A stretch of DNA of 64,000 bases from the NCBI RefSeq assembly GCF_004010195.1, contig NC_057727.1, positions 47,338,060 through 47,402,059 on the forward strand, in the 5' to 3' direction. The DNA comes from Chiloscyllium plagiosum. Lineage: Eukaryota. Positions 59,628 to 59,990 of the stretch are shown here, piece after piece (position 1 is the first letter of the stretch; every line of letters starts with the position of its first letter). The notes beneath the pieces were generated by a model. It made no database searches, was not told the DNA's origin, and was given only the letters and a program-made list of their open reading frames with translations. The translations under genes were made by a program, and so were the position numbers.

Positions 59628-59990
59628 CATATACCCATCCAAATGCCTTTTAAATGTTGCAACTGCACCAGCCTCCAACACCTCCCTCCGGCAGCCCACT
59701 CCACACATGCACCACCCTCCGTGCGAAAAAGCTGTCCCCCAGATCTCCCCTCTCACCCCAAACCCATGCCCTCCAGTTTCGGACGGCCCCAGCCCAGAGA
59801 GAAGACCCCGTCCATCTATCCCACGCATGCCCCTCATAACTCTGCAAATCTCTACAAGGTCACCCCTCAGTCTCCAACACCCCAGGCAAATCAGCCCCAG
59901 CCAGCCTCCCCCCACCCACCACCGCCCCCCAACCCACCCACAGCCCTAGCCCTCCAACCCCGGCAACATCCCCGCAAATCCCCATTGAAC
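59628..59990 (-). mobile_element. HER1 LINE segment, A>G hypermutated on its sense strand
   Basis: Colinear with 1490-1828 but with roughly 30 T>C changes on the plus strand. Confidence 0.85.

What the first reader, a model, noticed from the sequence alone, without database searches (positions are those of the whole stretch)
59628..59990. Genomic fossil of an ADAR-hyper-edited LINE RNA
Seen: this HER1 segment aligns by eye to ordinary copies in the window (1490-1828, 16000-16280, 62470-62830) but carries roughly 30 T>C changes on the plus strand and few A>G. Examples: AATTGTAC>AACTGCAC, AAACCTATGCCCTCTAG>AAACCCATGCCCTCCAG, AGACTTTGTCTATTTA>AGACCCCGTCCATCTA, TTGTAAATCTTTT>CCGCAAATCCCCA. The element is on the minus strand, so these are A>G in its RNA. 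Most surviving Ts are followed by C (A with a 5' G in the RNA). The first ~35 nt (59628-59662) are untouched, giving a sharp boundary. Established: ADAR hyper-edits long dsRNA, disfavours A with a 5' G, and inosine is copied as G by reverse transcriptase. Inference: an edited transcript was reverse-transcribed and fixed in the germline, so RNA editing was written into DNA.
Basis: partly seen in the sequence, partly recalled or inferred. Interest (0 to 1): 0.85.

Follow-up and report, generated by a model that had tools for sequence, protein, structure and literature searches.

The report
RNA-editing scars fossilised in genomic LINEs
A 360-base piece of a jumping-gene copy carries 43 A-to-G changes on one strand only, as do at least 14 other loci in this genome, most likely because the RNA-editing enzyme ADAR edited each RNA before it was copied back into inherited DNA, which would leave a fossil record of RNA editing in the genome.

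Summary
Confirmed, and wider than reported. Against a column majority of own-genome copies, 59628-59990 has T>C at 43 of 90 T and A>G at 2 of 79 A; background T>C is 2.4%. DNA contigs support 42 of the 43 changed bases, and a second species carries the locus with at least part of the edits. Fourteen other loci are hyper-edited on the element's sense strand, each with its own set of sites; mirror searches found no free-standing antisense-edited copy. Pooled context matches ADAR (5' U≈A>C>G; UAG 112 of 141). Two loci hold both arms of an inverted repeat, A>G on one strand, and sense-arm editing stops within 1 and 5 nt of the partner arm's end. One such unit splits another repeat, as an insertion would. 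Edit-made CpGs have decayed (43 of 90), so the changes are old. Against: antisense arms lack 5'-G depletion, no parent locus was found, and this copy lacks its own tail. Capture of ADAR edits by retrotransposition is published for cell culture (3 of 235 insertions); nine searches found no paper on inherited copies. This scan noted similar cases in an L1 and an LTR in other genomes.

The parts
59628..59990 (-). Fragment of a CR1-type LINE (end of the reverse-transcriptase ORF); positions 137-490 counted from the family's 3' end; 5'-truncated and lacking its own 3' tail
   Evidence: an ordinary family member gives Pfam RVT_1, E 2e-19; 'CR1/HER1' is a recalled label
59663..59983 (-). Hypermutated tract: 43 T>C on + (A>G on the element's sense strand)
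59628..59662 (-). Unchanged 35-nt end of the fragment (10 of 10 T intact)
59628..59629 (.). Non-homologous junction with a 2-nt overlap (CA) to the neighbouring LINE; the junction sequence occurs once in the genome
   Evidence: loose ends (1 match at up to 2 mismatches)
58660..59629 (-). Neighbouring LINE of another subfamily with an intact 3' tail near 58660; unedited (T>C 3 of 268, A>G 3 of 249); 4.6% from the majority of 19 relatives
59745..59746 (.). 13-nt deletion relative to the family
59916..59936 (.). 21-nt C-rich insertion inside the edited tract
59991..60700 (.). Single-copy flank; anchors the locus in runs of organisms B and C
   Evidence: 1 match; records 8, 16, 24, 32
1359..2206 (-). 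Ordinary copy of the family in the window (control): T>C 7 of 217, A>G 5 of 219
32541..33612 (+). Nearest oppositely oriented copy covering the same segment, 26 kb away; unedited (T>C 12 of 272, A>G 13 of 271)

Best explanation
This is a LINE fragment with 43 A-to-G changes on its sense strand, most likely written by ADAR into a double-stranded transcript and then likely copied into germline DNA by the LINE's reverse transcriptase. Steps: (1) Inferred: a transcript held this LINE sequence and an inverted relative, which paired. (2) Inferred from context and pairing limits: ADAR turned about half of the adenosines to inosine. (3) Established chemistry: reverse transcriptase reads inosine as G. 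(4) Inferred: copying was primed from a LINE 3' tail, here probably the neighbour's tail at 58660, and reached the edited piece either by a template switch or along a chimeric RNA; a later deletion of its own tail is also possible (my odds 45:30:25). (5) Shown: the bases are in DNA and the locus is shared with another species; shown for the pooled edited copies: CpGs made by the edits have since decayed. The event recurs; at least 15 loci carry independent patterns.
For: Strand bias: 43 of 90 against 2 of 79. Recurrence on the sense strand: 5 of 29 loci from the Q query, and 6 and 8 genome-wide matches to two sense-edited motifs, 12 distinct loci, all clustered. Mirror motifs gave 1 and 1 matches, neither edited; a mirror query gave 0 of 29 loci (5 of 29 versus 0 of 29, P=0.052). 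Context in 14 sense fragments from 13 other loci: 5' U 0.66, A 0.59, C 0.32, G 0.22; 3' G 0.49 (P=2e-4); UAG 112 of 141, as described for ADAR hyper-editing (PMC4365171, passages). Pairing limits: at L090 the sense arm has T>C 120 of 269 at positions 172-1164, spanned by the inverted arm, and 10 of 186 beyond; at L079, 27 of 70 against 2 of 162. Last clustered edits are at 1163 and 691, arm ends at 1164 and 696. The A-rich unique spacer at L090 looks unedited by composition. The L090 unit splits another repeat with a roughly 10-nt duplication. CpG decay: G>A at 43 of 90 sites beside an edited base against 17 of 204 beside an unedited one. The terminal 60 nt are spared: 1 of 107 against 43 expected from context. 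Six loci with an ADAR-type deaminase domain exist in the genome. Precedent in cell culture: PMC11702581 (passages).
Against: The three antisense arms show no 5'-G depletion (17 of 25 edited), though n is small and two of them are far diverged. Q alone shows no 3'-G preference (18 of 31, P=1.0). No parent locus was found for the L090 spacer (40 of 129 candidates scored). Q has no tail, no target duplication that I could see, and no partner arm in the window or the next 10 kb. Some edits fall outside the mapped partner arms: L079 positions 256-413 (18 of 45), L090 positions 16-171 (13 of 31) and 726-814 (10 of 27). L088, left out of the pooled counts because it is fragmented, has 4 of 13 changes at positions 10-89. 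Copies were found with motifs and a query from one part of the element, so patch positions are biased.
Confidence: 0.88

Rival explanations
1. The changes arose in place after insertion: ADAR acted on the DNA strand of an RNA:DNA hybrid, or an edited transcript of the locus was written back onto it by RNA-templated repair.
For: L079 and L090 hold both arms at the locus, and no parent locus was found for the L090 spacer.
Against: 12 of the 14 other edited loci, and Q, show no edited inverted arm within the 10 kb read (two have assembly gaps at the 5' end). The L090 unit, unique spacer included, splits another repeat. Free-standing edits are sense-only, although host transcripts cross the elements in either direction. 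The terminal 60 nt are spared.
Confidence: 0.07
2. A polymerase made the changes: an error-prone reverse transcriptase under nucleotide imbalance, or a translesion polymerase such as Pol eta, which favours A>G after A or T (recalled).
For: The 5' A/U preference is shared with Pol eta (recalled). A reverse-transcriptase error would also be sense-specific.
Against: Within one insertion the changes stop where the partner arm stops. The 3'-G preference is present in the pool. Rates near 50% come with no rise in other substitution types.
Confidence: 0.04
3. GC-biased gene conversion, a GC-rich subfamily, or an assembly artefact.
For: The tract is C-rich, and the read support comes from contigs only.
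Against: A>G is only 2 of 79. Copies do not share site sets or diagnostic variants. The bases are in DNA contigs of organism A and partly organism C. Edit-made CpGs have decayed.
Confidence: 0.01

Closest known systems
ADAR-edited de novo pseudogene insertions made by L1 in cell culture (PMC11702581, bioRxiv 2024; passages read; its Fig. S8 not seen)
   Same: Clustered T>C confined to inverted repeats of the copied RNA, attributed to ADAR; 3 of 235 insertions.
   Different: Those are somatic, induced and human, with mRNAs carrying Alus. Here the copies are inherited, old, shared between species, belong to a non-L1 LINE, and the LINE sequence itself is edited.
APOBEC 'DNA editing' footprints in genomic retroelements (PMC4866542 and PMC3880073; passages read)
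   Same: Clustered, strand-biased, deaminase-type changes fixed in retroelement copies and read against the family majority.
   Different: G>A made on cDNA versus A>G here. PMC4866542 filtered for G-to-A and against A-to-G and has no occurrence of 'ADAR' in its main text.
ADAR hyper-editing of inverted repeats in transcripts (PMC4365171; passages read)
   Same: G depleted upstream, G enriched downstream, long duplexes from inverted repeats.
   Different: There it is an RNA-versus-DNA mismatch; here it is in the DNA.
A>G hypermutated retroviral proviruses and LTRs (avian cases; recalled, and named in scan note e1-8036428; no paper read)
   Same: Edited RNA copied to DNA by a reverse transcriptase.
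   Different: Retroviral and mostly exogenous; here a non-LTR element with many independent germline events.

Membership tests
ADAR hyper-editing product | A>G only, clustered, on one strand | tested here: met
   43 of 90 versus 2 of 79; other types at most 7
ADAR hyper-editing product | Depletion at adenosines with a 5' G | tested here: met
   Q 8 of 28 versus 35 of 47; pool 130 of 583 versus 613 of 1130. Not seen in the three antisense arms, 17 of 25
ADAR hyper-editing product | Preference for a 3' G (UAG best) | tested here: inconclusive
   Met in the pool (320 of 653, P=2e-4; UAG 112 of 141); not in Q alone (18 of 31, P=1.0)
ADAR hyper-editing product | Confined to double-stranded regions | tested here: inconclusive
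   Upper limits match the partner arm at L090 and L079, with some edits outside the mapped arms; Q has no partner arm to test
ADAR hyper-editing product | Inosine in RNA, dependent on ADAR | not testable with these tools
   Ancient event; deaminase-domain genes are present at six loci
Retrocopy made by a LINE reverse transcriptase | Own 3' tail with 5' truncation | tested here: inconclusive
   Q lacks positions 1-136 and is joined to another LINE's tailed end; the 14 pooled fragments at other loci align to within 81 nt of the 3' end, 12 of them to within 20 nt
Retrocopy made by a LINE reverse transcriptase | Insertion into a pre-existing site, with target duplication | tested here: inconclusive
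   Shown for L090 (interrupted repeat, about 10 nt duplicated); none seen for Q
Retrocopy made by a LINE reverse transcriptase | Unedited parent locus elsewhere | tested here: inconclusive
   None found for the L090 spacer or the Q junction; searches score only the best candidates
APOBEC DNA-editing footprint | G>A excess on the sense strand | tested here: not met
   C>T on + 7 of 121, G>A 3 of 42
HER1 / CR1-clade LINE | Reverse-transcriptase ORF | tested here: met
   Pfam RVT_1, E 2e-19, on ordinary copy L056
HER1 / CR1-clade LINE | Sequence identity to a named HER1 reference, clade placement | not tested
   No reference held; PMC3747384 lists HER1 as the LINE partner of HE1 in sharks and rays

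The most novel reading that the evidence does not exclude
Vertebrate genomes hold an overlooked, datable, single-molecule archive of ancient ADAR activity. In this genome tens of LINE copies are frozen hyper-edited transcripts, some of them multi-kilobase host RNAs with both hairpin arms carried in behind a LINE tail. Their spared 3' ends map the RNA element that the reverse transcriptase must recognise, and their edit-made CpGs feed a second round of mutation.
Probability: 0.65. Interest if true: 0.86.

Novelty: new variant of a known kind. Interest (0 to 1): 0.76.

Why it matters
A 2016 review states that roles for ADAR editing in Alu subfamily evolution and in mutational suppression of retrotransposition had not been determined (PMC4982230). 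These loci point to edited LINE RNA reaching the germline and staying there. A genome scan could then measure how often this happens, in which lineages and when, and could read ADAR's sequence preference and duplex limits from long-dead cells. Screens built for APOBEC footprints filter such copies out. The rate is low, roughly 1 in 1000 copies by my estimate, so the effect on genome composition is small; the value is as a record and an assay.

Tried and rejected
No RNA holder was listed for the stretch; this is no evidence either way. Small-share runs that I did not lay were not used. The parent-locus search with the L090 spacer found only the locus itself and an 80-nt repeat. The junction search found only this locus. 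The two mirror-motif hits were rejected: L037 lies, by eye, in another repeat family, and L046 has A>G 8 of 93, T>C 4 of 99, C>T 22. Loose T>C flags and on diverged fragments (for example window 15869-16282, L070, L072, L074) were rejected as old-subfamily differences; the stricter window test flagged 0 of 70 fragments in the unedited-motif loci. The idea that the neighbour 58660-59629 is much older or also edited was rejected: it is unedited, and its divergence at non-T sites (41 of 691) does not differ significantly from Q's (21 of 245), P=0.18. An unbiased random-stretch survey was not run, because at about 0.1% it would hold too few edited copies. Passages of PMC7140322, PMC13648404, PMC2564838, PMC10760644 and PMC8586724 showed no inherited ADAR-edited retrocopies.

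Full report
The observation. The stretch 59628-59990 aligns to several copies in the window and to thousands of candidates in the genome, G000, 3.56 Gb (5766 candidates, 40 scored, 29 loci used besides itself). Against their column majority it has T>C at 43 of 90 T and A>G at 2 of 79 A; the other ten types total 21. Ordinary copies have T>C 2.4% and A>G 2.2% (38 fragments). An ordinary copy read on the opposite strand encodes a reverse transcriptase, so the element lies on the minus strand and the changes are A>G in its RNA. The labels CR1 and HER1, and the host being a shark or ray, are recalled or inferred, not tested. Positions below count from the family's 3' end. The edits span 59663-59983; the first 10 T are intact.

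The bases are real and old. Four contigs of DNA run X1 tile 59648-60200 and agree at 42 of 43 edited sites; 59941 reads T in X1 and in part of X5, and C in X14. A contig of organism C, anchored in the single-copy flank, covers 59851-60200 with 18 differences, 8 of them listed in the flank; at least 6 of the 16 edits in that span are therefore shared. All four runs have single-copy depth at 59788-59813, which holds 4 edits, with no reversion listed. These are contigs, and X1 may be the assembly's own sample. Independently, in the 15 pooled fragments (Q included), where an edit created a CpG the G has become A at 43 of 90 sites, against 17 of 204 where the T stayed. This is what methylation decay in inherited DNA gives, and it would also hide some edits with a 5' C.

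It is not alone. Five of the 29 loci from the first search were also T>C-clustered. Two motifs with three TA>CA changes matched 6 and 8 times genome-wide: 12 distinct loci with Q, all clustered. The unedited form of the first motif matched 28,371 times. The mirror motifs (TA>TG) matched once each, neither in an edited copy. A natural antisense-edited fragment used as query gave 0 edited loci of 29. In all, 14 other loci are edited. They share sites somewhat above chance, as a common preference predicts, but not as a lineage: median Jaccard 0.31, maximum 0.57, at most 6 shared other variants per pair. From 6 in 28,371 and about 0.66 per UA site I estimate roughly 0.1% of copies, tens in the genome; this is an inference from two motifs.

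The context is ADAR's. In 14 sense fragments from 13 loci (L088 left out as fragmented) the edited share by 5' neighbour is U 0.66, A 0.59, C 0.32, G 0.22; by 3' neighbour G 0.49, A 0.46, C 0.35, U 0.35; UAG is highest at 112 of 141. PMC4365171 describes G depleted upstream and enriched downstream for hyper-edited RNA (passages). Q shows the 5' pattern (P=2e-4) but not the 3' one. The three antisense arms do not show 5'-G depletion (17 of 25); this counts against, and is unexplained.

Two loci kept both arms. L090 (G000:C28:32354900-32364899) holds antisense pieces (A>G 63 of 108 and 36 of 81), a unique A-rich spacer of about 720 nt, and two sense elements (90 of 210 and 143 of 486), all A>G on the same strand; younger unedited elements sit inside. 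The long sense element has T>C at 120 of 269 over positions 172-1164, the span of the antisense arm, and 10 of 186 beyond; its last clustered edit is at 1163. The unit ends in a LINE tail and splits another repeat whose halves are continuous in L083, with about 10 nt duplicated. L079 repeats the pattern: antisense arm to 696, sense edits to 691, 27 of 70 inside and 2 of 162 beyond. Some edits lie outside the mapped arms at both loci. No parent locus was found for the spacer.

The 3' end is spared. Positions 1-60 carry 1 edit in 107 sites against 43 expected from context; positions 61-140 carry 59 in 214. This region is predicted to fold into a stem-loop. PMC3747384 describes LINEs of the stringent type that must recognise their 3' end (passages). 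Selection for an intact recognition element is my inference; L088 has 4 of 13 changes at positions 10-89, and tapering of patches could contribute.

Anatomy of this locus. Q has no tail of its own. At 59628-59629 it joins, with a 2-nt overlap, a 970-nt tailed LINE of another subfamily that is unedited (T>C 3 of 268). The junction is unique. The two parts do not differ significantly in divergence (P=0.18), which allows one insertion event but does not show it. No edited inverted partner lies in the window or the next 10 kb. A template switch, a chimeric source RNA and a later deletion all remain open.

Mechanism. Shown: strand-specific A>G clusters in DNA, recurrence, context, pairing limits at two loci, insertion of one two-arm unit, age. 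Established: ADAR's preference and inosine read as G. Inferred: the RNA duplex, ADAR as the enzyme, and copying by the LINE enzyme. Deaminase-domain genes are present at six loci. Editing in place (0.07) and polymerase error (0.04) fit worse, for the reasons listed under rivals.

What is known. PMC11702581 reports 3 of 235 new L1-made pseudogene insertions in cultured cells with clustered T>C in inverted Alus, attributed to ADAR (passages; supplementary Fig. S8 not seen). APOBEC G>A footprints in genomic retroelements are established (PMC3880073, PMC4866542; passages). PMC4982230 called the role of ADAR editing in Alu evolution undetermined (passage). Nine searches (listings and abstract starts) found no report of inherited ADAR-edited LINE copies; the library lacks most subscription journals, and supplements were not read. 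Two unchecked notes of this scan describe like cases in an L1 and an LTR in other genomes; I reached my reading before seeing them and they are not independent proof.

Verdict. A real, well-supported case of a mechanism already seen in cell culture, here inherited, recurrent and with its duplex context preserved: a new variant of a known kind, interest 0.76.

Noticed in passing
L090:1102-7540 (G000:C28:32354900-32364899): A unit of about 4.7 kb (without later insertions) with inverted arms, a unique spacer and two sense LINEs, all A>G on one strand, inserted into another repeat; a likely long 5' transduction by a LINE thought to need its own 3' end.
   Followed up: yes
L089:4691-6061 (G000:C24:44642300-44652299): Longest continuous edited tract seen: 133 of 372 sites over 1.3 kb, with no inverted partner in the 20 kb read (L089, L096).
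   Followed up: partly
L088:4950-5120 (G000:C24:37464800-37474799): Short edited copy with an internal deletion, fused at its 5' end to a more diverged LINE piece; unlike the others it has changes close to the 3' tail.
   Followed up: partly
L083:4860-5330: An 11-nt string occurs on both sides of the edited copy, about 35 nt beyond the tail on the 3' side; possibly a target duplication with extra sequence.
   Followed up: no
window 59916-59936: 21-nt C-rich insertion within the edited tract; several edited copies at L090 also show expanded G runs, which suggests slippage at runs created by editing.
   Followed up: no
window 63013-63333 and 63518-63851: Inverted pair of SINE-like repeats (about 76% identical) 190 nt apart; no A>G or T>C skew in the profile.
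   Followed up: partly
window 11745-11877 and 12352-12484; 53618-53854: Short inverted repeats (97% over 133 nt in the first case) of a family that recurs across the window, like the ends of a DNA transposon or MITE.
   Followed up: no
G000 C5, C7, C17, C32, C41, C51: Six loci with exons matching the adenosine-deaminase editing domain PF02137; not assigned to ADAR, ADAD or ADAT genes.
   Followed up: no
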